From contig OZ361260.1 of NCBI GenBank assembly GCA_977018835.1, forward strand, positions 3,410,001 to 3,474,000: a stretch of DNA of 64,000 bases, in the 5' to 3' direction. How positions within the stretch are numbered: the first letter of the stretch is position 1; every line of letters begins with the position of its first letter. The position numbers and the translations under genes were made by a program. This DNA is from Minutocellus sp. GHC0000111 (lineage: Eukaryota). Of this stretch, positions 18,055 to 60,902 are shown one piece after another. The notes below the pieces were generated by a model. It saw nothing but the letters and a program-made list of their open reading frames with translations. It was not told the origin of the DNA and did not search any database.

Positions 18055-18786
18055 CTTTAGATTGAGTTGGGTCTACGTTGCTCCGAATCTTGGGGCTGGG
18101 CTGGCCGACTCGACTCGAATCTTACACGATGCGATTGATCTTTCGATGGGTTATGATCGAGCGATGTGTATGTCGAATTCTGTCTTTCTGCAACGGAATG
18201 CGGGCTGCATGTGCATCGTGCTTCCGCAAAAAGAGCTTCAAGTGTTCCGTGTTTCGTGTCGAAGCACATCAATTCTGTCGAAACACGTAGATTCTGTCGA
18301 CAGCCATCATTCCATCATTCCCACCATTTCTGGTTTGAATTCAAAGTCGAAGTCTAACTCTGGTCGATAGCCATCATATCATTTGTCACATCGCGAGGTA
18401 TGGACATGCCATTGACTCTTGCCCGACCCCTCGAGGTGCATGTTGCCCTCATCGCTATGATTGAATTATTTGATTCCTTCAATTGCTGGCCTTGCTCGGT
18501 CGAGTCATACATGCATCAGGTTGTTGGTTATCTCTCGCTCAGGCGCCAGTCCGCCTACACACTTTGCAAAAAGTGAGAGCATCGTTCCCATTCTACAACG
18601 CCATGTGCACCATTTTGGAGACACGCTGCAAGTGATAAGATAGGCCTACCAGTACTCGTATGTGCTAACACACCCGTGGGGTCACAAGGGAGGCGCATGG
18701 CGTGCTGAAGTGCGTATCTTTGCATATCTTTTTTATTGCGTTGCTGCTTTGCTTGGCTGCCGCGCTGATTGCTACGATTGAGCGAG

Positions 18787-20969
18787 CACAGCCCCATCTC
18801 GTCTTGTTTCGCCGGTCGGATGAAGCGTTTTTCGGCAGAAGACGAACACGTCACGAAGAAACCCACCAAAACCCAATCTCGTTCGTCACCCATTCTTTGA
18901 CCGTCCAACACCATGGTGGTCCGTCGGCGTTGCGCCGGCGCATAACTATATTTTCGTACCAAATACGCATTCATTATCATGTTTGGATATAGTTGAAGCT
19001 TATTGTATCCTCAGATTGGCCTCCGCTGCGTATCAACGCCACGAACCATCAGCCTACTTTTCCTCCATCTGTCGGCCGTTCGTTCGTTTTTTTCTCTGGG
19101 GTGGCACCATTGCTCCGTCTTTGTGCTCGTCGTGCTCCCGTTGTGATGCCCCAGACCCTCTGGTACTTTCCCACGTTGTTGTTGATGATAAACTGCCGGG
19201 ATTGCGCCGCACCCCCCGTATGACCGACTCTCGCTGATCCCGACCGATCGCATCCCCACTCGACCTCCCCCCCGGAATTCCGACAATGGTTTTGCGCCCG
19301 AGGAGAGACAGATAGCATTGGGATAAGTTTATGCAACAATCAACCCAACAAAGGGACTTTTTGGTCTGGGAGATAAATGGGTGAGTTAAGAAGGACGTGA
19401 TGTGTTTGTTTGGGTGCACTGTTTACTTTTTTGCTCAATCGCAACACTGTTTGTAAAGTTGGATTGTGCAATTCATTTGTCATTGTGTGTAGCAGCAGTG
19501 TAATTTCATTTTCTAATTTTGTGCATGCCCTGCTCCCATCTCTACATCCTCATCTCCATCGGTGGCCATCATGATCATTTGTTGGCGCTTGTCATCAGTT
19601 TCTGCTTTAACAGCTTCGGTCCTTGTCCTTTTCCTTGTTCTTGCCACCCGAGAGTTTCGCTCCCGCCTCTCCTCGACCTTTGGATTGGATGCCCTCTCCT
19701 CAGCCTTGAACCTGTTGTCCCCGGCAATTGGATCGTCATACTTCGTCTCTGAAACCAGCAGGAGAGTTCCTTTGGTGGAGGTGTTATGGTGGATGAACTC
19801 TGTTGTCCTTGGTTTCTTCTTGTTGTTGCCATCAGAAACATCAATGGATAAAGCTCTCCAGCATTCTGCCAGCACTGCCCTCATTTTACCTGAGTCGGCC
19901 GCCTCAATGCCGGCGTTTTTCAGGAAATGGAAGTGAGGGGCATCGTCATCCTCGGCATCATCGACAGCTCCCATCTCTGGCTCGCCATCACCGTGCTTCT
20001 GACGATTCTTCTCAAAGTGCTGCTGCATGCATGCATGCATGCGCCTCATGTGTAGCGTCCTCTCTTGCAATGTCAGCTTCGTCCTCACAACAGGGCACAC
20101 AGTCCTCGTCTTCGTCGTCATCGTCCTCACTGATCTCGCCGGCCTCCGTCGTGGTCAGGGTGCCCACCGTCCCAACATCGTCGTCATTGTTGTCCCACCC
20201 ATCGTCCTGGCCATTGCACCCACCAGGGAACTTCTGGGCCTCGAGCAACATCTGCCTGTTGATTTCGTAGTCCATCGCCGCATGTCCCACCGACACATGT
20301 GGTGCGACCGACTTGAGGAATGCATTGCATGTTTTCGTCAAATTGAGCCTCGGCGGCGGCATTTCGAGGCGAAATTGTTGTTGCTCGACCGTGACCACAT
20401 GTCGAAAGCCATCCATCCATCATCATCATGGAGAGAGCGTCGGCTGCACGAGGATTGATTGAACCGAGGCGAACAAACATGCTCTTTTTGTGTGGGGTTC
20501 GCTGAACGTCGTCGGCAAGGCAGTGTCTTGATGCCATTTCATCCCATCCATTCTGGTTGTCTGTCCTCACAAAAAAACACATCGCAGTCTTCTTCGTGTT
20601 TCTTCTTCTTCAAACCCAAGATGCCCGCAGTGTGTGCATGACGGCGCCGCACATGATGGGACTGCATCCCAACACATTCATCAAGGAGTCGTTGTTGTTG
20701 CCGATGAAATTGTAGCAATGAAGTTCCTTTCTGCGAAGACGGACGAGCAGTTCAGCCAGGGCGTCCTGCACCGCAACTCTGTGTCTGCGGGGTGTTGACC
20801 GCGGGATTGCGGCCGTTGTTTTTTTTTGCTCATGGAGAGTTGTGGATCGAGACCAACGGGAACATCACCAGGATGTCGCGGGAGCACCTGGTTGGTCTCG
20901 TGCCGCAACTCTCCCACACCAGCGCGAGACATCGCCTTCGTTCTGCACGTAGCGGCGGCAATTTGAATT
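18787..20969 (-). mobile_element. Chapaev/CMC-like DNA transposon copy A (left TIR present, right end truncated, internal deletion)
   Basis: Begins with the same CACAGCCCCATCT terminus as the 58261-60902 copy and is colinear with it up to ...ATTTGAATT (20969 = 60787). Confidence 0.85.
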
Positions 20970-22331
20970 CACACACATCGGTGGGATGTGCGGCGATGGA
21001 CTACGAAATCAACAGGCAGATGTTGCTCGAGGCCCAGAAGTTCCCTGGTGGGTGTAATGGCCAGGACGATGGGTGGGACAATGACGACGATGTTGGGACG
21101 GTGGGCACCCTGACCACGACGGAGGCCGGCGAGATCAGTGAGGACGATGACGACGAAGACGAGGACTGTGTGCCCTGTTGTGAGGACGAAGCTGACATTG
21201 CAAGAGAGGACGCTACACATGAGGCACACATGCAGCAGTGCTTTGAGAAGAATCGTCAGAGAAGCACGGTGATGGCGAGCCAGAGATGGGAGCTGTCGAT
21301 GATGCCGAGGATGACGATGCCCCTCACTTCCATTTCCTGAAAAACGCCGGCATTGAGGCGGCCGACTCAGGTAAAACAAGGGCAGTGCTGGCAGAATGCT
21401 GGAGAGCTTTATCCATTGATGTTTCTGATGGCAACAACAAGAAGAAACCAAGGACAACAGAGTTCATCCACCATAACACCTCCACCAAAGGAACTCTCCT
21501 AGAGCACAATCGCGAGGAAGATGGCATGACGGATGACGACATCAAAGAGCTCTGCAAAGCTTGCTCTAATTTGCTCCACACTCTTGACGCAACATGTTCC
21601 AGGTTTCTGAAATGGTGCATGAAATGGGATGATGAGGCAAAGAAGGCTGTGAGAGAGCTTGAAGCATTGATTGCAAGTGCCCTCAAGCAAGCACGGGCAA
21701 TCGGTGTTAGCATAACGCCCAAGTGGCACTTACTCGAAGATCACATCTTGGACCAACACATTTGGCTAGTAGTGAAGAATGGATGGGGCGGCATCTATTG
21801 GCTCGACGAATCGTTTGTAGAGCGAGCCCACCAAGAGGGCGTTAAGTAAGGAAGATCGTCGGACTCAGGGCGTCAAGGGATATGAGGCCCAACAGACGGC
21901 GCAGTTCAAGGCTGAGGAGAGGGCATCCAATCCAAAGGTCGAGGAGAGGCGGGAGCGAAACTCTCGGGTGGCAAGAACAAGGAAAAGGACAAGGACCGAA
22001 GCTGTTAAAGCAGAAACTGATGACAAGCGCCAACAAATGATCATGATGGCCACCGATGGAGATGAGGATGTAGAGATGGGAGCAGGGCATGTATAAAATT
22101 AGAAAATGAAATTACACTACTACTACACAATAACAAATGAATTGCATAATCCAACTTTTACAAACAGTATCGCGATTGAGCAAAAAAGTAAATAGTACAC
22201 CCAAACAAACACATCACGTCCTTCTTAACTCACCCATTTATCTCCCAGACCAAAAGTCCCTTTGTCGGGTTGATTGTTGCATAAACTTATCCCAATGCTA
22301 TCTGTCTCTCCTCGGGCGCAAAATTATTGTC
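20970..22331 (+). mobile_element. Inverted internal fragment (copy A') of the same transposon, with transposase C-terminus
   Basis: Reverse complement of ~58748-60123. Encodes VSITPKWHLLEDHI...GGIYWLDESFVERAHQ, the H-x4-H plus catalytic-E region of CMC/Transib-type DDE transposases. A 4-bp TAAG duplication at ~21843-21850 creates a stop. Confidence 0.85.
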
Positions 22332-22746
22332 CAAAGCGATAAGGCCGAAACGAAAAAGAGGCAAGGATAAAAAACGAAGTGCTTGGCCAGACACTGGGCA
22401 AACCGCTGGGCAAACCGATCGCGGAGACGATGATGCCAGGCGTTGGATGCATGTACCAGATAGATAGTATGATAATATGTGTACTCCTAGTTATATTTTG
22501 AAGCAAGATGCACAACAATCAGCCATTATTCTCGTGTTCGAGCAGTCAGCACAACACGTTTGCCCGTCCGCTACGTGTACGAAGTCCGTTTCGCGAGAAA
22601 TCGAGCGCAGCAACCGCCTGAATCTTAGATCTACCGGCATTGAATACATGTACAATGCAAAGTACATGTATTGCAGCAGCTAGTATCCAGATCTACAATC
22701 CAATCTAGTATTATTAAACACAACATAACTTAAAAGCACCGCAGGA

Positions 22747-24089
22747 CTAATTATCCATGGTTGGATCAGCAGGAGGAGGAGCGATAATTTTCCCATCTAT
22801 CCGAACCATGCCATTTTCAGTCGGCCTGAAATCCTTTCGCACCCCAACATGCATGCCTTCACCGTTTCCAAGAAAATCATTGTTGCCTTTTGCAACGATT
22901 ACCTTCTTTGCAATTCTATGAGCCTGTATGTATGCCGATGCGATCTTCCAGTTTTCCAGCCCCATCCAAACTTCCTCCGCTGCATCCCAAGTCTGATCCT
23001 CTGTCAAAACCTTCAGCCCCTCCCGATCGCGGCACAACATTGTATGCTGCTTTGACATGCAAGGGAAAACAGACAGATCAAGAACATTCATATGGGGCAT
23101 TGCGGGGCCTGAGGTTCCCAACGCCATCCCTTGTCCCGACAGTATCCTTCCACATATTCCACAAATTCAGTCTCGGCATGGGGCCCAGCATTGTCGCCCT
23201 GGAAAATAGGGACATAGCCTTCAAACTTTCCGCCAGGTCCGACCAAAGCCTCAACATCCGGAAATATCTTGTTCTCAAACAAAGCTTTCAGTGGGAACTT
23301 GGGATTATCAAGGGTGCCATGGCTGCATCCAGTCACCGCGCAATCCACAAGGTATAGATCGTCTTTCTTCCGAACCACCGGGCCGCAATATTTGATTCTA
23401 CCATCTGCCTGCCGCACCGCCTCCCTTACCATCTGCCTCGCAATTTTATGCGCCTGAGCCCGAAAAAGTCCAAGCTTGAACGCAATGCCGCCATTCTCAA
23501 TGCTGTCAATAAAAGCCAAGGCAGTGACAGCCACCACCATGCACTTGTTGATGTGATTTCGGTGATATGCCGAGAAGGACCGAGGATCAACACCCAATTC
23601 TGCAACTTGCTTGGCATGCGATCGAAGAACCAAGCCCCAAAACCACTTCTCATCGAACATAACAAGGAGAAACTTGCCACCGCCGAGCCCCCAATTGTTT
23701 CGGAATTTCCGCGCAAATGCCAAATGTTTCTCCATCTGATGTGTAGTAAGGAGAGGGATGATCCTTTCGGCATAGTACCGGAACCCTTCCCGCGACATTA
23801 TCCACCGCCGTATTGCCGAGTAGGAACACCAAAAGTTGACATCCACCTCCAGCTCCCGCCAAGATTCCCGAGGATTTCGTATCAGAGCATCAACAATAAC
23901 ATCTCGAATGTATGGCTGCATAGCCAGATGAGATCTCCTCTTCATCTCCCACATCGCCTTCTCAGATGCAGGTAGAGCACCATACGCCTTCATCCATCCC
24001 GAAAATCGTGCACCATGCTCTGCGCTGGACAGCACCGAATAGTCCACCTTTGCCTGCTCTCCCTGCACTTGGCAATTGCAAAGAGACAT
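22747..24089 (-). mobile_element. IS630-Tc1-mariner transposase related to the plant-mariner (DD39D) group, here DD38D; 1-nt frameshift at ~23100
   Basis: IIPLLT..QMEKHLAFA, VMFDEKWFW, HINKCMVVAV, IFQGDNAGPH and QAPQ(M)PHMNVLDLSVFP. After restoring the frame there are 38 residues between the second and third D. Confidence 0.85.
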
Positions 24090-24128
24090 GGTGCAGTATG
24101 CCGCCGGGTCGCCGTTGCAAGATCGTCG

Positions 24129-24670
24129 ATGACAGAACGGAAGGCGGCCGAATCAGATGAATCATCGGCACTCGTTGGGAAGCAGTATACCGGTCCAAGT
24201 ATGCCGATCGCGTCATCGAAATGCTCAGCTTCGACTTCCGCCCGAGACACAAATGGATTGAACACATACTCACCGCTGTCTTGGCCATCATCATTGACCA
24301 GGAGAAAACTCTCAAGATTGACGGGCCCGAGGATTTTGAGAAGCACATGCTCCTCAATGTCGTCAGTCGACTCGTCTGCCGGGCGATAAGGGCCGAGAAC
24401 ATGCCCCTCGACATGGATGATGTCGTGGCAATAACTGAATCGGTGTACGACAAGGCCGCGGAGATGTTCCACTCCTCAGTTACCTTCATCTACAAGTTAA
24501 ACGGCGTGAAGCGGGAGCTAAAGAAGCTCAAGCTCATCCCGGATTGGCTGTGGTGCGAGATCCGGGACGAATGCATCGTACTGCCGATCCGAGGCGAGTA
24601 TCATGCCATCGTTCAAGATGAAGACGAGATGGAGGCCGAACCGTCGCGTCGCACGAACGCGTCCATTTGA
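24129..24670 (+). CDS. Orphan ORF (~180 aa) divergent from the mariner transposase; probable frameshift at ~24160
   Basis: Protein-like sequence with strong GC3 bias (IIGTRWEAVYRSKYADRVIEMLSFDFRPRHKWIEHIL...WLWCEIRDECIVLP). No family recognised. Confidence 0.4.
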
Positions 24671-24865
24671 TTAGAGCCGCTGAAATCTAAAGTCTTATCC
24701 GAATTATTGTTTCACATGAAGATAAATCAAAATTAGAGTAAAAATAGCCATTTTCTTAAATATTTCAGCATGACTATTCTTCGAGGCGCTTTTCAATCCC
24801 CTCGAAAGCAGTCAAAAACCGGGCGCTCGATTTCTCGCGAATCTGACCTCGTAGTTGTGCCAACG

Positions 24866-25480: not shown

Positions 25481-25503
25481 ATTGATTACCAAAATATCAC
25501 ACA

Positions 25504-27063
25504 TCAATGCACACAGGTGCTCACTTCGGGCACGCTCGTCATTGTAGCAGCAGCATTGCGATCAAGGCACTGCTTCACTTCCTCTAGCATATTTCCATCT
25601 AGAGAGAGAATGTACTTCAGATAATAAACTACAATCATGTCGAGTTGGCTGCCGGGTCCGTTGACAAAAGTGACGAATTCGTTGTCATCGACAAATTGCA
25701 AATCGATGTTGCCGTTGCTGTCCGTGGGGACAATGTTCCCATCCCCATTGCCACTTCTCTTGAAGTTGGCTTGAAGCTGCACATGTAATTGGAATGGAGT
25801 AGTTGCACACTTATGGGTTAGAACATAACATGGCCAGAACAATTGAAATGATGCGCATTAAACAATACTGACTTACCGTAGTGACATTGGAACGGACTTT
25901 TGTGAGGGTATCTTTCATGTCCTTCTCTGTTGCTGGTCTGTTGGAAGATGGCGGTGGCAGATCATTCGCTTTGTTGAAGGGTTCGGGTAAATCAGGCATC
26001 TCAATCGACTGAATTGACACATCACTGTTGCACATTTGAGCGGCCTTCTCGTAGAAATTGAGAGGGCGGTTGGGGGAGTTACGATCGTCAAGCTCCCTGG
26101 CAGTTGCGGAGTTGTTTCGGTTCACAAGATCATCACGGAGAGAGGGGTGAAGCATCACATGGAAGCGTCGGAGTACAGCAAATGTGCTGGCATGGGCGAC
26201 TTGGCTGGCATCTTCCTCAAGCTTTGAGCAGAGATTTGTGAGCAGGGCGTTGACAACGGGACGCTCATTGGGAACAATGATCTCGCTAAGATATTTTTCC
26301 AGCTCCGATTTGGTCCAATTGGTACACTTCGGCATCTGCCTTGGCTCGTCGGAAGCATCATTAAGGAGGACGACGCGGCGCAATACCTCGCGTTTCATCA
26401 CGATCGGATTCGACTACGGAACTCCTTTCTTCATTCCATACTTTTTGCCCTTCTTTCCGACAAAGTTCTGGAGGGTTTCGTGTTCAAGAGGATCGACAGC
26501 ATATTCGGTACCGACAGTCATGGCAATAAGAACAGCTGGTTCGTCCAAGGCCTTATCATACCATTTCTGGGGCCGAAGTTTGTCAGCATCAATACTGAAG
26601 ATAGTATACAAATCATTGGCCAACGTTTGTGATGGGCGAGCGGGGGAAGACTGGGCTGGCCTGGAACGTGATGAACCACTCAAGCTGTTGTTGCTGGAAC
26701 TACTGTTGGAAAGGGAACTGGGAAGATGGTTGCGGCATCGAGTTCGGTTACTGTCGGGGTTGATGTCCGACCATCCATTCATACACTCGACGCAAAAGGC
26801 GATGCCGCAGATGCGGTCGAGGTGATGGGGCCGGGGCGGTAAGCAACAGTACTTTGTGGCACGATGAAGCGGCAGATGTTCTCAGTGAGGGTAGAAGTAG
26901 AGCACATGCTACATCGGACAGGTTCAAACTTGTTGACTGAATAGTTGAATGAAAGGATGGTCAAACCATCCTCGTCGGCATCGGATGCGGCGGTAGCACC
27001 GCCCGCTGCTGCGGAAGCGGAAGCGGCGGAAACCTCTGACGCCTCTGTCCGCGTGTTTGCCAT
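25504..27063 (-). pseudogene. Harbinger-associated second ORF (N-terminal Cys/His zinc finger; Myb/SANT-like accessory), disrupted
   Basis: Convergent with the transposase. CSMC..C...RICGIAFCVEC...RCRNH after a 1-nt frameshift at ~26820, an in-frame TAG at 26414-26416, then LNFYEKAAQMCN...NFKRSGNGDG and a probable intron near 25790-25877. Confidence 0.55.
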
Positions 27064-27365
27064 GACGGCGGCGGCCTCTGGTAGCAGACGCACAAGATAC
27101 GGTGCACAGAAGGCCGGGCAAGGATGCAAAGCCCGATGCCGGGCGGGCCCGAGATAAATGGCTCAACCTTTTGAAGGAGAGCGTGATGGGCGGACTCCGT
27201 CGATAGATACCGCCCATTTTCACTGCGGAAAGAGGAGCTTGGCTCTTTCTCCGCCCCTCTCAAAGACGTTTGTCGACCTTGGAGCGAACGGCATTTCATC
27301 GAAGACCTCCGGGTGCTTTTGGAAAAACATCGAAGTTGATCAACGTCTTGAAGTACACAAAACCA

Positions 27366-27815
27366 TTACCTACTTGCCTCAAATTCGCACTTCCCACAAA
27401 AACTCTCTTGTTTGGACCGCCTCTGAGCCATTGGAATACCGTCGATCTCACCACCTGCCTCTTCTTCATCAGAAGAGGCAATGTCAATGATGTCCTCTTG
27501 CGCGGTGATTTTCACCAGAACTCGGCTAGAACTTGTCCTGTAAGTTGAAGTCAGCGCTGCATCGTAGTTGGTATGGGTAGGGCTCACCTCATCGTCGAAA
27601 AGAATGCCTTCCATCTTCAATTGCTCTCCGCTATGCCAGAGACCAAGGACTCTCCACGCGTTAGCAACGCCATCTTGGAGAAATGATTGGTGAAAGGCTT
27701 GATTCAAAGTATATTCCCGAGGGCAAAAGACACAGAGGGCTTTGTCCTCGAAGCGCGTGTCTTCGCGTTGGATCACGAATTTTACACGGATGTCGGGGCT
27801 ACTTGCAATACTCAT
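27366..27815 (-). CDS. Orphan ORF inside the transposon island
   Basis: ~150-aa ATG-initiated ORF (MSIASSPDIRVKFVIQ...). No recognised domain. Confidence 0.35.
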   Translation of the reverse strand: MSIASSPDIRVKFVIQREDTRFEDKALCVFCPREYTLNQAFHQSFLQDGVANAWRVLGLWHSGEQLKMEGILFDDEVSPTHTNYDAALTSTYRTSSSRVLVKITAQEDIIDIASSDEEEAGGEIDGIPMAQRRSKQESFCGKCEFEASR

Positions 27816-28052
27816 CTTGGAGGAGAAAATTATAGGTATGAATAGAAGCAATGGGTTCGAGGTCGGCTTATTATTAATATTTGGATAAATGAAAAAGAGA
27901 CAATCGCTGATTTGAATAGACAGATTTTTGCGCACCGTGGAACGCATCGAATGCAACGTGTCACTCCGATGTCAGTTCAAATCGGCATTTTCATTCTCTA
28001 AGCTCGCCAAATTGTGAATAGTTAGCGACACACATACAACCCCTCAATTCCA

Positions 28053-29159
28053 TTAGTTCAACACAGCAAAATCATGAATATCCTTCAGTACGTCCTCGAC
28101 GAAGCGACTATCATGCATGAAGAAATGATCTCCACCATCATATACCTTGAGGACTGAGTTGACTTCATTTGAAGTATCACAAAGGTTTAGCCATAGCTCT
28201 TCGGAGTCTCTGTAGTCTTTGCTCCCGTTCATAAAGCACATGGGTATATCGAGCTCAGGAATGTGCTTCGCTGGAGCAACGCTCCGAAGAATTGTAACCT
28301 GCTCTTCTCCTTGCTCAAAGAACCACCCGGCAGCAAAAGTTGATTCAATCACCCATTGGTCGGCGGGGGACATTTTGGTAACATCTAGCATCATCTTGGC
28401 CAATTTCTTGTTGCTGTAGTGTTTTGCGACATAAGATAGCAGATGCAAACCCAGCGATGCTTTGAGACTTCTCCCAGGACCAACGTTTTGGCCGCAATCC
28501 ATCAGCACGGCGCTGTTGAATACTTTCTTGAATTCGTCTAGCAGGTAAAACCCAACGTAGGCACCGAGTGATCCACCAACATAAACAATCTTCTCTTTTG
28601 AATTTGTCCTCCTTCCGTCTTCTTCTTGAATGATCTTGTTCTCTTCGAGAACATTTTTCAGTTCCTCCCAACACGTATCAAAAGATAGCTCGACTTCAGC
28701 TAGACTGCCATGCCCTGGTAGATCGAGAAGGATGCATCGATGACCATGCCGAACCATTAGCTCTTGTGCGTGGTGACGAAACATGGCTCGACTGCCACCA
28801 CCACCGTGAACGAAGACGAATGTGACACCAGACTTCTTGGCATCGGCTGATGGCTCAATCACGTCGTAAGTTTTTGTGAAGTCCAGGACGGATAGTCGTT
28901 GGAAGCAGGACTTGCAGAAGCTTTGAATGTGCGCCTTCTTTTGAAGATCTTTGTCGCGTCCCGACGAATTCTCATCACAATCCTTCATCAAGACCAACGG
29001 ATATGACTCGTAGCATACCTTACAAAGTTCAGCGTCACAAGATTCGCACGAAAAGGAGGCCGCTGAGCAGAAGAGCCCGTGCCGTTTGATGGGCTGATCG
29101 CAATCGTTGCAGGTTGTCATGAGTGAGTGGCGGAAATCAGCGGCAGGTGCTGGTGTCAT
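28053..29159 (-). CDS. Alpha/beta hydrolase with N-terminal Cys-rich (FYVE-like) zinc finger
   Basis: Four CxxC pairs (CNDC, CESC, CKVC, CKSC), then VFVHGGGGS, DLPGHG, nucleophile elbow GGSLG, NGSKD and GGDHF. Confidence 0.85.
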   Translation of the reverse strand: MTPAPAADFRHSLMTTCNDCDQPIKRHGLFCSAASFSCESCDAELCKVCYESYPLVLMKDCDENSSGRDKDLQKKAHIQSFCKSCFQRLSVLDFTKTYDVIEPSADAKKSGVTFVFVHGGGGSRAMFRHHAQELMVRHGHRCILLDLPGHGSLAEVELSFDTCWEELKNVLEENKIIQEEDGRRTNSKEKIVYVGGSLGAYVGFYLLDEFKKVFNSAVLMDCGQNVGPGRSLKASLGLHLLSYVAKHYSNKKLAKMMLDVTKMSPADQWVIESTFAAGWFFEQGEEQVTILRSVAPAKHIPELDIPMCFMNGSKDYRDSEELWLNLCDTSNEVNSVLKVYDGGDHFFMHDSRFVEDVLKDIHDFAVLN

Positions 29160-29833
29160 CAGACGTACTCTTCTATTGTGTTCTCGTTCGTTTCAGTGCT
29201 TAACATGCACGCCCGTATACGTACGTATAAACAGCCTGAGCACACGCGTTCAATGCGTGTTTAGTGCTGATGCGATGATGTTCTAGTGGCTAACGCAAGC
29301 TCAGGGAGGGGGCACCCATCCGCGCACATAGAGACAGTTTGCTATGATTTCCTTTGTTCCGGCAAGTAGTCAGATTCGTGTGGATAGTTGCGCTACAGCA
29401 GATGGCCCGGGTGCCCCGATGAGTTGAATGCGTGCAGAGAGAAGCAAGCATGTTGTTGTGTTGCAATCCACAAACAACGGGTGTGTGCAACACATGTGGA
29501 GAGGAGCAGCTGCCAAAACAAGGCGGTGCACTTTATGAGCAAGGCGGAGCTACTTGTCATCCGCCAACCCTGACTGCAGCCACTAGGTAATTACTAGTAG
29601 AAGCTAGCGCTACTAGTAGGTAACAACCACTGCCAAAACGCTCATCATCTGCCCCCATTCGAGGGAGGCGGGACCAACATGTTTTTTGACAGGACCAAGC
29701 CCATTTGCTAGCAGTTTGTTAGCCGCCTTGTTTCGTCACTCGGTCAGAGCTCGAGGCGGAGCCTCGAAATTTCTTTTCCCTCTGCTTGGCACCTTCTCGT
29801 CAAAATGAGCGAGCGACATGATGTTTCTAGAGT

Positions 29834-30202
29834 GCAGCTAGCTAGCCCGTCTTTCTTTTCTTGGCTCTCTTGGCTTCTTGTCGTCGTCGTCGCTCTCTGC
29901 TTCGTAGTCGGACGCGTCAGCAGCTGCGGCCGCCACGGCAGCAGCTACGGCCACGGCAGCGACTTCATCGGCATCGTCCTCGTCGTCGGACGGGCTGAAA
30001 GTGGTCGTCGAGCCAAGAGCAGCTAGCTAGCCCGTCTTTCTTTTCTTGGCTCTCTTGGCTTCTTGTCGTCGTCGTCGCTCTCTGCTTCGCAGTCGGACGC
30101 GTCAGCAGCTGCGGCCGCCACGGCAGCAGCTACGGCCACGGCAGCGACTTCATCGGCAGCATCGTCCTCGTCGTCGGACGGGCTGAAAGTGGTCGTCGAG
30201 CC
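29834..30202. repeat. Tandem duplication, period 185 bp, of the 3' end of a degenerate minus-strand ORF
   Basis: Units 29834-30014 and 30019-30202 are identical except for a 3-bp indel and one TA/CA substitution (29905 vs 30090). Confidence 0.9.
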
Positions 30203-30830
30203 GCCAGTGCTCACGCTGGCACCACTTCTTTCCAGCGGCGCGCGGCGTTTTTTCACCCGTCCAATGATGTCTCCGTCCAAGGCAAGGGAGTGTCTCGCGG
30301 CCGGCTTGAAGGTTGTCGGCGATGGACGTGATCAGGTCCATCGCCTCATCGTCTATCAGGCCGCGAACGCCGGCAGGCATCATGAGGAGGACGTCGGCGT
30401 CACCAGCCAGCCAGGCAGGCCGAGGTGCAGTGTCTCGGACTTTGCGTGCTTGTAGGTTGCTCCGAAAGGGGGACCGATGCATGCCACCCGGCCATCAAGA
30501 GGTGGAGAAAAATGCTGCGCAAGTCCAATGACAGCACTGTGCATGCGGCGGGGACGACCTCGCGCAACAACGGAGCCTGAGTTCGTCCAGCTTTAGGTGA
30601 GCCACTCGACCCGCGAAAAGTAACAATGCATCTTGCCGTCGTGGGATACGTACGTACGTACACATACGTACGGTACGTACGGTGATCAGACCACTGAGTG
30701 CCCTCTCCTGACCGTTGATCCATGGGCCAACGACATCTCCGATGGCCCATTTTTCATCTACGTAGGTCCTATTAACCTCTACTAGCTATATCTATCTAGC
30801 TTAGCTTTAGGACCTCTTAGCAGACCTACG

Positions 30831-31750
30831 TGATGCATCTTTTCCACCCGTGCTCGCCCCATTTCGGCTGGTTCGCACCTCACCGGTCGGTTTGTCTTGC
30901 TTGGTTGGGTTCTCACTCGTCACGCAAGAAAAACCGACACATTTTCAATCGGCCAAAACGACCGTTTCTTTCGACAACATTGGAACGACGATCCAATCCC
31001 TTCCCCGAAAGTCCTGACCAGATCGACCCATCCAATCGATCACACTTCTCTCTGGATCGAACCTTCTCTGTCGATCACACGTCTCGCAGCAGCAACACCG
31101 CCGTGCTGCCTGCCTGTCTTTGTCGCTGACTGAAACACCAGCATGAATCCCGACGCAGTTTTTGGCCAACCTCTCGGCGCAGCGCCGATTCTCCCCACCA
31201 AGTTAATCACACGCATGAATGACCCAGGACAACCTCCCAACGCGAGCGTGTTGCCAAAGCGCTCAAGGAACTTCAACAAGCGGCGGCCACCAGCGTTCCA
31301 GCAGCAGGGTGCAATGTGACCATGACCTCGGCCATTTGGGCCTCGTCGTCAGCGATGCCGAATACACAACCGAAAGTAACGGCCGACCACATGTGCCTCC
31401 GGCAAATGCTGGCCCCAGCCCCACCATTCCCGCCGTGGCCAATCTAGACCAACGCGATCGTGCAATCCGGGGACATTGCATCGAAAAGGGCCACTGCAAC
31501 TTGTGCGAGCAAGTCAACACGGCGCTCAAGAATCTCCTCCTCGACTCGACCGACGCCGTCTACATCAATCATCTCGAAGATGACATGCTCGGTTTCCAGC
31601 CAGTCACCATCCGCCAAATCATCGACAGCATCACCGATCGCCACTTGAAATTCAAAACGAGAGAGACTCAGAAGGAGGAATTAGAGAAGCAGCTCGAGAA
31701 GCAGTGCGACGGGGGACCCATCGACACCCACATCGCCATGTTTAACTCGG
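30831..31750 (+). mobile_element. Truncated Ty1/Copia (CoDi-like) LTR retrotransposon relic: candidate 5' LTR 30831-30979, candidate PBS at 30981, gag N-terminus from 31143
   Basis: TG...CAACA followed by T-TGG. The frameshifted peptide ...KELQQAA.SVP...GHLGLVVSDAEY...P.VPP...VNTALKNLLLDSTDAVYINHLEDDMLGFQPVTIRQIIDSITDRH matches the diatom Copia gag pattern as I recall it (GHLGLV..AEY; ALK..L..A.D..Y...L.D..LGF..VT). Confidence 0.7.
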
Positions 31751-32600
31751 CCTTTGGGCACGTTGGAGGGATGAGTGTTTCAACAGTTCGAGCCCGGCAC
31801 AGCAGCCCATCCAACATCAACTCCCCTGCGCTCTCCGGACGGTCTTGCCTTTTCCTTCCGAAGGCAAACAACACCAACGGCCTGTTCACGACGACTCAGG
31901 CGACGTGACGGAGCAACCAGGGAAGGAAGGACCACCAGGAGCATGGCCTCGATCGATCGGCTTGTCGATGAGGCGAGATTTGGCAGCAGGCCACCACATG
32001 TTGGTGACCAGCACAGCAGGGCCGTCATGATGGAAGAGGTGGACGGCCGCGTTGATGTGAACGACCATCCACAGCGCTGCAGCGAAGACGGCATCACTGT
32101 CAGCCCCCCTGCACCCAAAAAAGCGATTGGAACTCGGAGGCATGCGTCGCGGACAGATCGTGGACCGACCACCAGACTGTCCGGCACACTCCTCCTCGCC
32201 AGAGGTTGGCTGGCTTGAGAGCATGGCCCGACAGCAAACACCATGAGACGGCAGACTCATCTTGGCGTGCTACTAGTAGCAGCATGTAGCATGTGACGGG
32301 TGCGTTTTTCAGCATGGCTGGCGCCTCGAAAATTTCAGCAGAAGCGCGCGAAAAATTCGGAAACAACCATTCGGCAGAAAAAAGGTGAAGCGGGGCCAAA
32401 ACAATTAGCAAAAGACGATGAGGAAACACTATGTAGGCTCTGTGAATTTGCCGCGGAAGATGCGATTATTTGCATTGTTAATATTTTTTATCTTCGGGGG
32501 TGTTTTCGGGTTGTGCCCCGCTTCGATCATTGATTTTTCTCCGTTCATGAAGATTGTTATAACCCGGGAACTTCACCCCATTTCTCCATGTTACCGTTGT

Positions 32601-32935
32601 GAGGCGGCTCCAAAAAAGCTCATAGGTTTTCTTTTTGGCATAGGTTTTCACTATTGTTTGCCGGCGCTAAAACTGCCATCACTGCATGTGCATGTTTGTG
32701 GCATAGATTTAAGGGTGCGTGTAACAACAAGACAGTTAAGTTCCCCTTCATTTGGTTTTGCTGCAAAAATTTGGAAAAATCTAGCTGCCCAGAGGCAGAA
32801 AAACTTAGGTTTTGACAATGAAAACTAACAACTTAGGCCATTTTTGGCACAGGTTTTGCATGAAAAAAAGCTCATAGATTTTGAGGCGGCTCCAAAAAAA
32901 AGCTCATAGGTTTTCAAAATGGTCATAGGTTTTCT
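32601..32935. repeat. Cluster of short direct repeats, core CATAGGTTTT, in AT-rich non-coding DNA
   Basis: GAGGCGGCTCCAAAAAA(AA)GCTCATAGGTTTT at 32601 and 32883. CATAG(G/A)TTT and variants also at ~32639, 32702, 32848, 32873 and 32924. Confidence 0.7.
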
Positions 32936-33519
32936 ATGATGATTAGGGTGCATGTACTCTCTGATGATTATTGCTCTGGCGCCCTTTCAGCTTGTACTTG
33001 CTGTTGCTGGGCCTGATGTTGAACTTTGCGCATAAAAATCTTCATGGCTGAATATTTTGCGAGGCAAAATTTGAAGATAAAAACATACACGTACGTGCGA
33101 AGATTGTCCCAAATCAAACAAAAAAGGGGGGCACCGATAGCCAAATCTTCACAGTACGCCATGTAAAAGCCTGCCTAAAATGGCGATGCCATCCTCGGCC
33201 GGCTTGCTTGTTAGTACCAGATCTACATAAGCTACTGCAGCAGTCGTGCAAAATTTTTCGATGCATGCATTTCTTTAAGTAACAACCCTAATGACCCTAT
33301 GACTTTTCGATGCAAGGTCCACCAGATCCCCCCTCCTGACAGCACCTCCACTCCACCCCCTACAAAACTAGCAAGCTAACTTTGTCGCTGAGGGCTCGGT
33401 TACCTCGAGCCAACTTTTGTGGCACTCATACCAATTTGTATTCTATTGCCCTTACGTCTAGTAGCTCTATGCACACTGAATCTATCTAAAAAAAAACAGA
33501 AAGCAGTACCCGGGTAACG

Positions 33520-37003: not shown

Positions 37004-38434
37004 TTAAAAGCAAAGAGGCTCATCACCGTCGTCATCGTCCTCGCCAAGCACAAAGCTCTCATCATTGGCATGGTTGCCGGTGCCCTCGGCCTTGGATTTG
37101 CCCGCAGATGCAGTGATCTGCCCTGAGCTGTCGACACGAGAGTTGGCCAGCCCCTCCTCGCTCCGGGCGCAGAGCCGGAGGAGATTCCGACGAGTCACCA
37201 GGACGTCCTCGTGGTCCTCCTCGAGATGGTGCTCTCGGATCCACAGAGCCTCCTTGAGGGCTACCATGGCGGCATACGAGTCGTCGACGTGCGTCAGTGC
37301 GCAGCCGATGTAGTTGAGGGTTTCGGCCACGGCGAGGTGGTCGGTGCCCAGCTCCTCCCTCTGGAGGAGAAGGACCTCGTTGAAATGAACAATGGCCTCG
37401 GCGCATTGTTCGTTGTCGAGATGGTCGACGCCAGCTTGGAGGGGTTCGGCCCATCTAGCTTCGTGGTCTTCTTCTTCGCCATGGTCGTCGTCGCTGCCTT
37501 GCTCATCGTCTTCGGCGGTGGCAACGGTGGCAGTGGCATGGGAGCACTTCTTGACATTGTCGTTGTCTTCGTCGTCGTCGGTGTCCTCCTCTTCGTTGAT
37601 GATCTCATCCCACAAGACGTTGAGGAGCTTGCCTATGCTAGAGACTCGAGGTGGGGGCTTGGTGTTCGGTTCGAGAGGGTTGCCGTCATTGTCTTGGTTG
37701 TCGTTGTCTTCGTCATCACTATCAACGTCGAGGCTGGCCGTGCCAGACGAGCGTCTTCTTTGATCTGGCATCATGGACGATGGTGCGTCCTTGGGGCTGG
37801 TGCCGAGCATGTTCAGTGCCGCACTTGACAGCCGTTTGACGCCGGCACCAATGCCACCGCTGGCGTTCATGGAATTCGTCGACGAATCGAAGTTGGTGCG
37901 ACGATTGTTCCCGCCGACCGGAGCAGACGACAGGCTGCGATCGTCGGAGCTTTGCCTCCACGAGGCGAGGCTGGATCGACGATTCGCCGAGGAGTCATTT
38001 TTGGTAGCAGCGGGCGCAGCTTCTGCGGTGGCCGCGGCGGTGGTTTCGTCCTGGAAGGTCTTCATCATGCGAGCCAATCCGCTGGGTCCCTTGAGATCCT
38101 CCTCGTCCTGCCTGGCCTTGGCCGTGGCCTTGACCATCTCGTCGAGTGCGACCGGACATCGAAGATTCATCGTCGCCGACGGATCAGGTCTAGCCATGTT
38201 GTTTTTGTTGGCGGCACCTTTGGGCTCGTCGTGGACGCTGCCGCTTCTCCCCCGCCGACGGCCGGCGGCTTGTGCTGGGGAGGAGTACGAATGGGGATCG
38301 TCTCCGTCGTCGTCTTGCTCTTGAACTCCCTTTTGGATCAAGTCCATTCCTCGTCGAATCCAGTTGCCGCCACCCTCGGCATCGCCGTCGGCATCTCGGC
38401 CCAGCACCTCGCAGCACGCTCCGTGGTTGACCAT
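37004..38434 (-). CDS. TPR protein (kinesin-light-chain-type repeats) with acidic disordered N-terminus
   Basis: AIVHFNEVLLLQREELGTDHLAVAETLNYIG...ALKEALWIREHHLEEDHEDV. Confidence 0.8.
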   Translation of the reverse strand: MVNHGACCEVLGRDADGDAEGGGNWIRRGMDLIQKGVQEQDDDGDDPHSYSSPAQAAGRRRGRSGSVHDEPKGAANKNNMARPDPSATMNLRCPVALDEMVKATAKARQDEEDLKGPSGLARMMKTFQDETTAAATAEAAPAATKNDSSANRRSSLASWRQSSDDRSLSSAPVGGNNRRTNFDSSTNSMNASGGIGAGVKRLSSAALNMLGTSPKDAPSSMMPDQRRRSSGTASLDVDSDDEDNDNQDNDGNPLEPNTKPPPRVSSIGKLLNVLWDEIINEEEDTDDDEDNDNVKKCSHATATVATAEDDEQGSDDDHGEEEDHEARWAEPLQAGVDHLDNEQCAEAIVHFNEVLLLQREELGTDHLAVAETLNYIGCALTHVDDSYAAMVALKEALWIREHHLEEDHEDVLVTRRNLLRLCARSEEGLANSRVDSSGQITASAGKSKAEGTGNHANDESFVLGEDDDDGDEPLCF

Positions 38435-38813
38435 GTTCGCTCGGATACGTAGGCGTATGTTCTAATGGCTTGAAAGGATACTAGCTAGTATTCTTTGTGC
38501 CATGTGCCATTCGCGGCTACGCACGGTAATGTGCAATGAAACAGAGCGGGCATAAAAACACGTGGCGCGCCGCACATAGGCAAATTATTATGGCGAGTTT
38601 CGCGCAAGGAGCAAAAGACACTTTCGATGTCTGAAATCACATTGGCCCCTTCCGGCCATTTCGCCTGCGTGGCACTTCTCATACAAAGTTGTTTCCCACT
38701 TTTGCTCGAGTTAGCGTTTGCAAGTTGATGGTTTCGTTCCGCATAAGTTTTGGAGGACCCCAAAGATACGCTTGCGTTGCGTCAGCCGCCTCATTTCATT
38801 TTTTTCATCAACC

Positions 38814-58143: not shown

Positions 58144-58260
58144 GGTTGAACGATAAGCTTTATGTGGTGGAAAACAAACACAATCCTCGTCAATACCAAT
58201 GAAATGCCCAACCAAGAGCCACACGAGTTGTGTGCGTTGGATGGAGCGAGAGCGGCGGGG

Positions 58261-60902
58261 CACAGCCCCATCTCGTCTTGTTTCGCCGGTCGGATGAAGC
58301 GTTTTTCGGCAGAAGACGAACACGTCACGAAGAAACCCACCAAAACCCAATCTCGTTCGTCACCCATTCTTTGACCGTCCAACACCATGGTGGTCCGTCG
58401 GCGTTGCGCCGGCGTGTAACTATATTTTCGTACCAAACACGCATTCATTATCATGTTTGGATATAGTTGAAGCTTACTGTATCCTCAGATTGGCCTCCGC
58501 TGCGTATCAACGCCACGAACCATCGGCCTGCTTTTCCTCCATCTGTCGGCCGTTCGTTTCTCTGGGGTGGCACCATTGCTCCGTCTTTGTGCTCGTCGTG
58601 CTCCCGTTGTGATGCCCCAGACCCTCTGGTACTTTCCCACGTTGTTGTTGATGATAAACTGCCGGGATTGCGCCGCACCCCCCGTATGACCGACTCTCGC
58701 TGATCCCGACCGATCGCATCCCCACTCGACCTCTCCCGGAATTCCGAGACAATAATTTTGCGCCCGAGGAGAGACAGATAGTATTGGGATAAGTTTATGC
58801 AACAATCAACCCGACAAAGGGACTTTTTGGTCTGGGAGATAAATGGGTGAGTTAAGAAGGACGTGATGTGTTTGTTTGGGTGTACTATTTACTTTTTTGC
58901 TCAATCGCGATACTGTTTGTAAAAGTTGGACTATGCAATTCATTTGTTGTTGTGTAGCAGTGGTGTAATTTCATTTTCTAATTTTACACATGCCCTGCTC
59001 CCATCTCTACATCCTCATCTCCATCGGTGGCCATCATGATCATTTGTTGGCGCTTGTCATCAGTTTCTGCTTTAACAGCTTCGGTCCTTGTCCTTTTCCT
59101 TGTTCTTGCCACACCCGAGAGTTTCGCTCCCGCCTCTCCTCGACCTTTGGATTGGATGCCCTCTCCTCAGCCTTGAACTGCGCCGTCTGTTGGGCCTCAC
59201 ATCCCTTGACGCCCTGAGTCCGACGATCTTCCTTAACGCCCTCTTGGTGGGCTCGCTCTACAAACGATTCGTCGAGCCAACAGATGCCGCCCCATCCATT
59301 CTTCACTGCTAGCCAAATGTGTTGGTCCAAGATGTGATCTTCGAGTAAGTGCCACTTGGGCGTTGTGCTAATGCCGATTGCCCGTGCTTGCTTGAGGGCA
59401 CTTGCAATCAATGCTTCAAGCTCTCTCACAGCCTTCTTTGCCTCATCATCCCATTTCATGTGCCATTTCAGAAAAACCTGGAAGAATGTGTTGCGTCAAG
59501 AGTGTGGAGCAAATTAGAGCAAGCTTTGCAGAGCTCTTTGATGTCGTCATCCGTCATGCCATCTTCCTCGCGATTGTGCTCTAGGAGAGTTCCTTTGGTG
59601 GAGGTGTTGTGGTGGATGAACTCTGTTGTCCTTGGTTTCTTCTTGTTGTTGTTGCCATCAGAAACATTAATAGACAAAGCTCTCCAGCATTCTGCCAGCA
59701 CTGCCCTTATTTTACCTGAGTCGGCCGCCTCAATGCCGGCCTTTTTCAGGAAATGGAAGTGAGGGGCATCGTCATCCTCGGCATCATCGACAGCTCCCAT
59801 CTCTGGCTCGCCATCACCGTGCTTCTGACGATTCTTCTCAAAGTGCTGCTGCATGTGTGTGCGCTTCATGTGCAGCGTCCTCTCTTGCAATGTCAGCTTC
59901 GTCCTCACAACAGGGCACATAGTCCTCGTCTTCGTCGTCATCGTCCTCACTGATCTCGCCGGCCTCCGTCGTGGTCAGGGTGCCCACCGTCCCAACATCG
60001 TCGTCATTGTCCCACCCATCGTCCTGGCCATTGTCACACACCCACCAGGGAACTTCTGGGCCTCGAGCAACATCTGCCTGTTGATTTCGTAGTCCATCGC
60101 CGCACATCCCACCGATGTGTGTGGTGCGACCGACTTGAGGAATGCATTACATGCCGTCATCAAATTGAGCCGCGGCGGCGGCGTTTCGAGGCGAAATTGT
60201 TGCTCTCGACCGTGACCATGTCGAAAGCCATCCATCCATCATCATGGAGAGCGTCGGCTGCACGAGGATTGATAGAACCGAGGCGAACAAATATGCTCTT
60301 TTTGTATGGGGTTCGCTGAACGTCGTCGGCAAGGCAGTGTCTTGATACCATTTCATCCCATCCATTCTGGTTGTCTGTCCTCACAAAAAACACATCGCAG
60401 TCTTCGTGTGTTTCTTCTTCTTCAAACCCAAGATGCCCGCAGTGCACATGACGGCGCCGTACATGATGGGACTGCATCCCAACACATTCATCAAGGAGTC
60501 GTTGTTGTTGCCGATGAAATTGTAGCAATGAAGTTCCTTTCTGCGAAGACGGACGAGCAGTTCAGCCAGGGCGTCCTCCTGCACCGACGGACCGCAACAA
60601 CTTCTGTCTGCGGTGTTGACCGCGGGATTGCGGCCGTTGTTTTTTTTGCTCATGGAGAATTGTGGATCGAGACCAACGGGAATATCACCAGGATGTCGGG
60701 AGTACCTGGTTGGTCTCGTGCCGTAATTCTCCCGCACCAGCGCGAGATATCGCCTTCGTTCTGCACGTAGCGGCGGCAATTTGAATTTTTGCCGCCATGG
60801 TGGCTCGCGTTGGGCGCGCCGGTCGGTTGCTTCGCGCGCCGGCCGGCCACCGAAAGTGCGACCAAAAGTATGCGAGTCATCCGGCTGGCAGATGGTGCTG
60901 TG
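58261..60902 (-). mobile_element. Chapaev/CMC-like non-autonomous DNA transposon copy B (2642 bp) with both TIRs and 4-bp GGGG TSD; degenerate transposase ~60798-58984
   Basis: Left end CACAGCCCCATCT, right end reverse-complement CACAGCACCATCT (1 mismatch), flanked by GGGG on both sides. Encodes the TPKWHLLEDH...DESFVERAHQ motif. Confidence 0.85.

What the first reader, a model, noticed from the sequence alone, without database searches (positions are those of the whole stretch)
30831..32270. 1.4-kb almost TpA-free domain over a Copia gag relic with Tyr->His/Cys changes (independent support for the TpA mutator)
Seen: I count only 7 TA dinucleotides in 30831-32270, with none in 30831-31203 or ~31745-32270. 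For comparison, there are 7 in just 120 bp of the nearby hydrolase gene (28081-28200). CpG is plentiful. The gag peptide has His/Cys where diatom Copia gags, as I recall them, carry Tyr (PHVPP, HCIEKGHCNLCEQ, DRHLK, KQCDG, DTHIA), which is what TAY->CAY/TGY produces. Several surviving sites are in TTA/TAA context, hinting at context preference. Inference: an unrelated TE class has been driven close to saturation by the same process, which acts on both coding and non-coding parts.
Basis: partly seen in the sequence, partly recalled or inferred. Interest (0 to 1): 0.8.

Follow-up and report, generated by a model that had tools for sequence, protein, structure and literature searches.

The report
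TA-erasing mutator spares retrotransposon promoter
Dozens of dead copies of two unrelated jumping genes, in what is likely a diatom, have each had T-A steps rewritten to T-G or C-A on both strands, likely by a host adenine-editing defence, while the front end of the retrotransposon (its likely promoter) has kept its T-A steps.

Summary
The count is right: 7 TA in 30831-32270 (observed/expected 0.11; window 0.54). The element is a truncated Copia LTR-gag fragment (30640-31746); the last 524 bp belong to other sequence.

Across 35 near-identical gag copies, 210 of 380 ancestral-Tyr cells are His or Cys, and 0 of 415 ancestral His/Cys cells are Tyr. The direction is therefore TA to CA/TG, the reverse of fungal RIP. 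Both strands are hit, and copies changed independently. The mutated A prefers a 3' pyrimidine. A second, RAG1/Transib-like family (56 copies) repeats all of this.

A high-copy Tc1-like neighbour is barely hit.

The signature is in print for Bigelowiella viral inserts (2026 preprint). My searches found no diatom report, but this scan noted the signature and the context rule in other diatom genomes. The enzyme is inferred (TadA/ADAT-like), not shown.

The parts
29230..32955 (.). Repeat nest hit by the TpA process: only 2 RTAY sites in the 3.5 kb outside the island (window mean 10.4 per kb)
   Evidence: multi-copy depth table 2
29230..30639 (.). Left flank, low- to mid-copy repeat of unknown kind; 34 TA but 0 RTAY in 1410 bp
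   Evidence: other contigs read TA at 29681 and 29707; no protein homologue for ORF 30153-30494
30640..30833 (+). LTR head (likely U3/promoter): island keeping 22 TA (9 RTAY, 6 YTAY, 1 RTAR, 6 YTAR); the first few bases of the LTR terminus seen in other copies are missing
   Evidence: loose ends at 30640 and near-invariant high-depth contigs over 30679-30820; 163 of 185 aligned bases identical to outgroup LTR L002
30834..31142 (+). Rest of LTR and leader, TA-free; first changed site at 30834-30835
   Evidence: 0 of 9 outgroup TA kept; other copies read TA at 30835 and 30978
31143..31746 (+). 5' part of a Copia gag, frameshifted near 31235 and 31289-31302 and cut at 31746; 7 of 9 Tyr codons changed to His/Cys plus Ile(ATA) to Met
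   Evidence: fold of intact relative matches copia and Ty1 capsid
31747..31886 (.). 140-bp TA-free filler after the gag break
   Evidence: bridged by a contig of run X1 (31713-31921, 0 other letters); no cover in X15 and X16 at 31760-31873
31887..32270 (.). Low-copy right flank, not Copia, TA-free; joined to about 30472 in contigs of four runs
   Evidence: table 5; TA/CA and TA/TG differences at 32232, 32269, 32272
18786..20969 (-). Family 2, copy 1: RAG1/Transib-like DNA transposon relic, also TpA-erased
20970..22331 (+). Family 2, copy 2 (inverted, abutting copy 1)
58260..60787 (-). Family 2, copy 3
22580..24860 (-). Control: high-copy Tc1-like element with normal TpA (80 TA, o/e 0.56, 30 RTAY)

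Best explanation
Copies of a Copia retrotransposon and of an unrelated transposon family have had TpA changed to TpG or CpA on both strands, copy by copy, likely after insertion and likely by a host TadA/ADAT-type adenine deaminase aimed at silenced repeat DNA, which would be kept off the LTR head by proteins bound to that likely promoter. Shown: direction, both strands, independence of copies, preference for a pyrimidine 3' of the mutated A (rough hazards from four sets of Tyr columns: RTAY 0.7-1.15, YTAY 0.3-0.5, RTAR about 0.1), sparing of host genes, and the island in this copy. Inferred: action on chromosomal DNA after insertion (about 0.85), A-to-inosine chemistry by a deaminase (about 0.65), targeting through repeat chromatin or small RNA (untested), protection of the head by bound protein (about 0.5), and a defensive role through loss of Tyr/Ile codons.
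For: Direction: 16 ancestral-Tyr columns in 35 gag copies hold Y169, C127, H83, F1, while 18 ancestral His/Cys columns hold 0 Tyr in 415 cells and all other columns vary in 163 of 9584 cells. His and Cys at one site each need a single step from TAY. Family 2 has 1 Tyr in 569 cells of 15 outgroup His/Cys columns (summed by hand). DNA: among differences with a defined context between the window's family-2 copies, 16 of 20, 16 of 29 and 9 of 17 are T[A/G] transitions, and 33 of 39 with a defined 3' base are TAY (pairs share copy 3). Context: His is common when the preceding codon must end in a purine (gag H47 C34 Y16; family 2 H61 C38 Y18) and rare when it must end in a pyrimidine (H8 C33 Y52; H10 C40 Y103); all 8 purine columns exceed all 10 pyrimidine columns, P=0.0002. 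Independence: His/Cys choice shows no tree signal (P=0.67, 0.55) while load per copy is over-dispersed (P=0.0005 in both). TadA-derived editors edit best at TAY (PMC10879117, passages). The same TpA signature arises de novo in chromosomal DNA of Bigelowiella (10.64898/2026.01.13.699255). Island: 12 of 14 outgroup TA kept and no transition, against 0 of 9 and 2 of 8 downstream.
Against: No enzyme, methylome or chromatin data were available, and no whole genome was held. An A-centred and a T-centred lesion give the same sequence outcome. No replicated strand-coordinated clusters or patches, which a processive single-strand deaminase might leave (gag P=0.03 within 20 codons but family 2 P=0.66; patchiness P=0.19 and 0.35). 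The TAY match comes from engineered editors, not a natural DNA deaminase. Copy statistics rest on predicted proteins from unnamed long contigs; only copies with a called ORF count and one locus may appear twice. A high-copy Tc1-like element is barely hit, so copy number alone does not trigger it. Family-wide sparing of the head rests on contigs that drop rare variants and may pool other LTR families sharing the core; 8 of the 9 RTAY in the island lie in a TACG repeat that slippage could renew. Some pyrimidine-class columns depart from the class mean (family-2 column 80 is 95% Cys, column 182 is 3%).
Confidence: 0.6

Rival explanations
1. Same targeting, different chemistry: an error-prone polymerase (pol eta-like, which from memory favours A-to-G at WA) fills repair gaps in repeat chromatin.
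For: Would hit both strands after insertion without clusters; a few A[A/G] differences occur (2, 4 and 2).
Against: Changes at TA are nearly pure transitions (1 Phe in 380 Tyr cells); ApA is not depleted (o/e 1.02-1.18); the roughly tenfold 3'-pyrimidine preference matches TadA-type editors.
Confidence: 0.14
2. A base modification laid on repeats at TpA (a modified A that decays to inosine, or a modified T that mispairs with G) mutates passively, as methyl-CpG does.
For: Fits slow, independent, strand-symmetric, unclustered accumulation with over-dispersed load and escape of young or protein-bound DNA. Diatom TEs carry repeat-specific methylation (PMC9998398, PMC2806351, passages).
Against: No such mark is known to me in diatoms (recalled). 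The known mark is CpG methylation, and CpG is not eroded in the finding or the nest (o/e 0.98, 0.99; 0.81-0.89 in family 2).
Confidence: 0.1
3. The changes arise during retrotransposition (editing of element RNA and of single-stranded cDNA), which could spare U3 as APOBEC3 gradients do (recalled).
For: Sharp border at 30834 just past the TA-rich likely promoter; both change types could come from RNA plus minus-strand editing.
Against: A RAG1/Transib-like family, which would have no reverse-transcription step, shows the same spectrum and context; non-Copia flanks are hit; no tree signal or strand coordination.
Confidence: 0.07
4. TpA is hypermutable genome-wide and simply shows where selection is absent.
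For: Window-wide TpA o/e is 0.54, and one host-like TPR gene reaches 0.24. TA-type differences also occur in low-copy DNA at 25014-27126.
Against: Fourteen unique non-coding stretches keep TpA and RTAY; a 1924-bp unique contig shows 0 substitutions against the window while repeats differ; the Tc1-like element and the LTR head are unhit.
Confidence: 0.07
5. The pattern is fungal-type RIP (CA to TA) read backwards, or an assembly artefact.
For: Diatoms have RID-related DNMT4 (PMC9998398, passages). The window copy has many small indels relative to other contigs.
Against: 0 of 415 and 1 of 569 ancestral His/Cys cells became Tyr. Short-read contigs match the TA-free flank letter for letter (run X1, which may be the source sample), and both TA and TG are present at 31496 and 31505 within runs X15, X16 and X1.
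Confidence: 0.02

Closest known systems
TpA hypermutation of integrated NCLDV and virophage DNA in Bigelowiella natans (Mettrop et al., bioRxiv 10.64898/2026.01.13.699255; read parts 1-4 of 5, supplements not seen)
   Same: TpA to TpG/CpA transitions on both strands in foreign-derived chromosomal DNA; host genes spared; ADAT2-like deaminase proposed; TE domains enriched among TpA-poor CDS.
   Different: Here the host is likely a diatom and the targets are multi-copy TE families read copy by copy, with preferred contexts near saturation. The preprint's main text has no occurrence of 'diatom', 'LTR', 'trinucleotide' or 'context'; its Table S2, unseen, may hold flank data. Its evidence is de novo mutation, mine is retrospective.
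Repeat-induced point mutation (RIP) of fungi (RID/DNMT4-dependent C-to-T, mostly CpA to TpA)
   Same: Repeat-focused, dinucleotide-specific transitions on both strands that wreck TE coding sequence.
   Different: Opposite direction: TpA is consumed, not made. Homology pairing and a sexual-cycle trigger are untested; a high-copy Tc1-like element is barely hit.
TadA/ADAT deaminases and adenine base editors
   Same: A-to-G with best efficiency at TAY (PMC10879117, passages).
   Different: Those are engineered or tRNA enzymes; no such gene was located or tested for this organism.
Ty1/copia elements of diatoms (CoDi lineages, PMC2806351, passages)
   Same: Copia-type capsid fold; intact relative has gag, one stop, then protease-like and integrase-like motifs in copia order; gag look-alike clusters are recorded as Bacillariophyta.
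   Different: The window copy is a truncated LTR-gag fragment without pol; placement in CoDiI, CoDiII or CoDi6 was not tested.

Membership tests
Bigelowiella-type TpA hypermutation | Changes are TpA to TpG/CpA transitions, one-way | tested here: met
Bigelowiella-type TpA hypermutation | Both strands are hit | tested here: met
   His and Cys at the same Tyr columns and within single copies
Bigelowiella-type TpA hypermutation | Confined to foreign or mobile DNA, host genes spared | tested here: met
   10 of 11 host-like ORFs at TpA o/e 0.42-0.58; one TPR gene at 0.24 is an unexplained exception
Bigelowiella-type TpA hypermutation | Acts on integrated chromosomal DNA | tested here: inconclusive
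   Supported indirectly by copy independence, a DNA-transposon-like family and hit flanks; 5'/3' LTR pairs were not available
Bigelowiella-type TpA hypermutation | De novo rate about 1000-fold above background, on in only some lines | not testable with these tools
   needs mutation-accumulation lines
Bigelowiella-type TpA hypermutation | Candidate ADAT2/3 deaminase in the genome | not testable with these tools
   no whole genome held
Fungal RIP | C-to-T at CpA, enriching TpA | tested here: not met
   0 of 415 and 1 of 569 ancestral His/Cys cells became Tyr; TpA is depleted
Fungal RIP | Triggered by repeat homology in the sexual cycle | not testable with these tools
   the Tc1-like control argues that copy number alone is not enough
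Ty1/copia LTR retrotransposon | Gag with retrotransposon capsid fold | tested here: met
   model of intact relative P0036 (pLDDT 85.7): Drosophila copia capsid Z 13.0, rmsd 6.6, 179 aligned; Ty1-derived CA-CTD Z 10.8, rmsd 2.3, 88 aligned; Foldseek rank 1 is the same entry but at E 0.16; 7 of 100 relatives hit Pfam Retrotran_gag_4 weakly
Ty1/copia LTR retrotransposon | pol order PR-IN-RT-RH | tested here: inconclusive
   In L001 protease-like and DDE-like motifs (read by eye, recalled patterns) follow gag directly with no RT between; Pfam support is weak (SH3_retrovirus E 0.002, DDE_3 E 0.06); RT lies beyond the contig; the window has no pol
Ty1/copia LTR retrotransposon | Paired LTRs, primer site and target duplication | tested here: inconclusive
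   one LTR head with diverse 5' flanks in other copies; this copy is cut at both ends
CoDiI / CoDiII lineage | Placement on the RT tree | not tested
   no RT of this family was in hand
RAG1/Transib-like DNA transposon (family 2) | RAG1-type DDE transposase core | tested here: inconclusive
   Atlas features 0.92-0.93 to RAG1 RNase H clusters, top hit DUF1280 at 12% of members; no Pfam or PDB sequence hit

The most novel reading that the evidence does not exclude
Diatoms run an inherited 'reverse RIP': a TadA/ADAT-type deaminase edits repeat DNA at R-TA-Y across retrotransposons, DNA transposons and adjoining sequence, and is blocked by proteins on a conserved LTR promoter module. Surviving TA islands would then be a fossil footprint of protein-bound DNA, and a natural DNA adenine deaminase would be shared between stramenopiles and Rhizaria.
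Probability: 0.35. Interest if true: 0.88.

Novelty: new member of a known kind. Interest (0 to 1): 0.7.

Why it matters
A repeat-directed A-to-G mutator has been described once, as a preprint on viral inserts of a chlorarachniophyte. This locus shows the same one-way signature in two unrelated TE families of a likely diatom. It adds a replicated context rule and independence of copies, which narrows the enzyme to a testable class. A natural DNA adenine deaminase acting in genome defence would matter for eukaryote immunity and for base-editor biology. The spared LTR head gives a sharp internal control for how the mutator is targeted or blocked. In practice, loss of TA removes TAA/TAG stops and Tyr codons, which would inflate ORF calls, TE ages and dN/dS in such genomes.

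Tried and rejected
No whole genome was held, so there was no genome-wide scan and no deaminase search. Locus searches with the family alignment found nothing in metagenome or viral contigs; the search with the outgroup protein gave 3 loci. No DNA of the near copies was obtained, so copy statistics are from proteins.

Strand-coordinated clusters: weak in gag (51 of 87, P=0.03), absent in family 2 (67 of 132, P=0.66); not accepted. Spatial patches beyond row and column totals: none (P=0.19, 0.35). A coding-strand excess expected from co-transcriptional single-strand editing: not seen (at RTAY, A>G hazard 0.72-0.76 versus T>C 1.05-1.15; site contexts differ). RIP direction: rejected. Context alone as the cause of the island: P about 4e-9 if 9 RTAY and 6 YTAY sites are independent, about 0.01 without the 8 TACG-repeat sites (hand arithmetic from the same rates).

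Pfam gave no hit for the window gag or the other ORFs in the interval. The left-flank ORF has no homologue among longer proteins (weak evidence). L001 pol and the family-2 protein had no PDB sequence hit. Lack of cover at 31760-31873 in X15/X16 is not proof of absence.

Literature searches for a diatom report (listings only, apart from the four papers opened) returned only the Bigelowiella preprint for this signature. The library lacks most subscription papers. The species name used as a term was a guess from memory and is not a result.

Full report
Observation. The interval 30831-32270 holds exactly 7 TA (31204, 31363, 31377, 31445, 31561, 31682, 31743), TpA o/e 0.11 against 0.54 for the window, with CpG at 0.98. 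Of 574 overlapping GC-matched 1440-bp windows outside the repeats the median is 34 TA and the minimum 11; that minimum is a host-like TPR gene at 37007-38461. The only equally poor stretch in the window is inside a second repeat family near 19900. The count is therefore real and extreme, but composition alone would not prove a mutator.

What the DNA is. A search with the gag core found 9 proteins at 78-92% identity; cluster look-up and the representative search added more, giving 35 near rows including the window's own and a 10-member outgroup cluster. An AlphaFold model of an intact outgroup member (P0036, 100-row alignment, pLDDT 85.7) matches the Drosophila copia capsid best (Z 13.0, rmsd 6.6, 179 aligned) and a Ty1-derived capsid domain next (Z 10.8, rmsd 2.3) (Foldseek puts the same entry first at E 0.16). 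Outgroup locus L001 has gag, one in-frame TGA, then protease-like and integrase-like motifs with no RT between, the copia order; Pfam support is weak. Atlas look-alikes are recorded as Bacillariophyta on very few members, so 'diatom' is likely but not tested on host genes. Contigs of other runs show diverse flanks before 30640 and run on into gag after 31746. The window copy is thus an LTR-gag fragment at 30640-31746. Then come 140 bp of filler, bridged in run X1 (which may be the source sample), and a low-copy flank from 31887 that other contigs join to about 30472.

Direction and strands. At 16 ancestral-Tyr columns (15 with outgroup Tyr, one inferred) the 35 rows hold Y169, C127, H83, F1; all other columns vary in 163 of 9584 cells, many of kinds a TA change could give (T>A, N>D, I/M/T). 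His and Cys at the same column are each one step from TAY, so Tyr is ancestral. The 18 columns that are His or Cys in both outgroup and family hold 0 Tyr in 415 cells, which excludes the RIP direction. The outgroup cluster has 103 Tyr and 1 Cys in 104 cells; it may be unhit or a collapsed short-read consensus. The window copy changed 6 of 8 Tyr codons in its main frame, Ile(ATA) to Met, and one more Tyr upstream of a frameshift. At DNA level, laid contigs read TA at 30835, 30978, 31496, 31505, 31632 and 31642 where the window has TG or CA; both forms occur within single runs at 31496 and 31505. That table showed 40 of 91 rows.

Independent family. Three copies of another repeat lie in the window (18786-20969, 20970-22331 inverted, 58260-60787). 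Among their differences with a defined context, 16 of 20, 16 of 29 and 9 of 17 are T[A/G] transitions (6, 13 and 7 further differences had an altered neighbour and were set aside); 33 of 39 with a defined 3' base are TAY. Its protein (56 near rows) resembles RAG1/Transib-type transposases by Atlas features (0.92-0.93) without Pfam or PDB sequence support, so 'DNA transposon' is a lead. It shows the same Y/H/C columns and 1 Tyr in 569 cells of 15 outgroup His/Cys columns (summed by hand).

Context rule. If the codon before a Tyr must end in a purine, His is common (gag H47 C34 Y16; family 2 H61 C38 Y18); if it must end in a pyrimidine, His is rare (H8 C33 Y52; H10 C40 Y103). With columns as units all 8 purine columns exceed all 10 pyrimidine columns (P=0.0002). 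This means the mutated A needs a 3' pyrimidine. Rough hazards are RTAY 0.7-1.15, YTAY 0.3-0.5 and RTAR about 0.1. Four of the 7 survivors in the interval are YTAR, the class refractory on both strands. TadA-derived editors are most efficient at TAY (PMC10879117, passages). I derived the rule before seeing that an earlier scan note reported it in another diatom genome.

Timing. His/Cys choice shows no tree structure in either family (P=0.67, 0.55), 204 of 280 site pairs fail the four-gamete test in gag, and load per copy is over-dispersed (P=0.0005 in both; gag copies range 0.10-0.91). This fits independent accumulation in each inserted copy with different exposure. Strand-coordinated clusters and patches were not replicated. 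Caveats: rows are predicted proteins from unnamed long contigs, only open frames are seen, and some rows may be one locus twice (P0201 and P0204 are near-identical; all 35 gag rows differ in pattern or extent).

Extent and the island. Using RTAY as marker (10.4 per kb window-wide), the hit zone runs from about 29230 to 32955: 0 RTAY in the 1410 bp left of the LTR and 2 in the 2122 bp right of the head. Between them the 194-bp LTR head (30640-30833) keeps 22 TA, 9 of them RTAY. Against outgroup LTR L002 it keeps 12 of 14 TA with no transition and is 163 of 185 identical; downstream 0 of 9 and 2 of 8 are kept at 75-80% identity. The first changed site, 30834, lies about 45 bp past a TATA-like stretch at 30787 (promoter role inferred). 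Contigs over 30703-30819 (depth 15,471, 0 other letters) and 30679-30820 (depth 17,578, 1 other letter) against 106 for a single-copy gene suggest the head is spared family-wide. Contigs drop rare variants, though, and the core is covered in run X3 where 30848-31132 is not, so other LTR families may add depth. Eight of the 9 RTAY lie in a TACG repeat; without them the chance of survival at family rates is about 0.01. The distal end of family 2 also keeps several RTAY in both copies while showing a few hits. Protection by bound protein is my lead reading; conversion from young copies and repeat slippage remain open.

Controls. Ten of 11 host-like ORFs have TpA o/e 0.42-0.58 with RTAY present, and 14 unique non-coding stretches have 0.37-1.42. 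A 1924-bp unique contig shows 0 substitutions against the window in three runs. A Tc1-like element at 22580-24860, at very high depth, has o/e 0.56 and 30 RTAY, so high copy number is not sufficient; it may simply be young. Against a clean picture: the TPR gene at o/e 0.24, and TA-type differences in low-copy DNA at 25014-27126 that is not RTAY-poor.

Mechanism. Most likely a host process converts A to G at TpA in repeat DNA after insertion, on either strand, one site at a time. A TadA/ADAT-type deaminase is the best candidate (overall confidence 0.6); an error-prone polymerase (0.14), a passive modified base (0.10), editing during retrotransposition (0.07) and genome-wide hypermutability (0.07) are the rivals. 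No enzyme could be sought, as no genome was held.

Known and new. Mettrop et al. (bioRxiv 10.64898/2026.01.13.699255; parts 1-4 of 5 read; supplements not seen) report de novo TpA to TpG/CpA hypermutation of integrated viral DNA in Bigelowiella natans, TE domains among TpA-poor CDS, and an ADAT2 candidate. Diatom TE methylation and RID-related DNMT4 are described in PMC9998398 and CoDi elements in PMC2806351 (passages). Seven searches found no diatom report in the held library. Earlier scan notes describe the signature and the context rule in other diatom genomes; none was found for this genome, this gag or the LTR island. I file it as a new member of the Bigelowiella-type kind, with the spared LTR head and the two-family, copy-level polarity and independence tests as this locus's own contribution. 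Interest 0.7.

Noticed in passing
L001:1572-1577 and L001 pol residues 612-656: The intact outgroup element has gag and pol in one frame separated by a single TGA (read-through candidate), and a Tudor-like domain (PF21743, E 9e-12) after the integrase region, a possible chromatin-targeting module.
   Followed up: no
window 22580-24860: High-copy Tc1-like element with short inverted ends and an open 354-aa frame keeps normal TpA next to heavily hit family-2 copies; young or escaping.
   Followed up: partly
window 18786-22331 and 58260-60787: Family 2 encodes a protein of about 1090 aa in full-length copies with RAG1/Transib-like features and no Pfam hit; two window copies abut in inverted orientation at 20969/20970.
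   Followed up: partly
window 37007-38461: Host-like TPR gene with TpA o/e 0.24, 0.6% Tyr and a 1-kb RTAY-free run, but no CA+TG excess; either low-complexity composition or a past hit.
   Followed up: partly
window 18500-33500: The window's repeat copies carry many 1-8 bp insertions relative to laid contigs (231 indel rows, 66, 12 shown each), and the ENA copies often show doubled residues; a second mutational process or assembly error.
   Followed up: no
window 30740-30833: Conserved LTR core with inverted arms that fold into a hairpin (-11.7 kcal/mol, DNA parameters, no shuffle control); covered in run X3 where the adjoining 30848-31132 is not, so possibly shared by several LTR families.
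   Followed up: partly
window 29831-30202: 185-bp tandem duplication whose copies differ by two substitutions, one of them of the TA type; some contigs have a single unit.
   Followed up: no
window 25013-27300: Low-copy stretch with several TA/TG and TA/CA differences from laid contigs but no RTAY depletion; perhaps an early stage of the process.
   Followed up: no
window 52563-54314: ORF combining beta-trefoil (ricin-type lectin/fascin) domains with an Ifi-6-16 domain.
   Followed up: no
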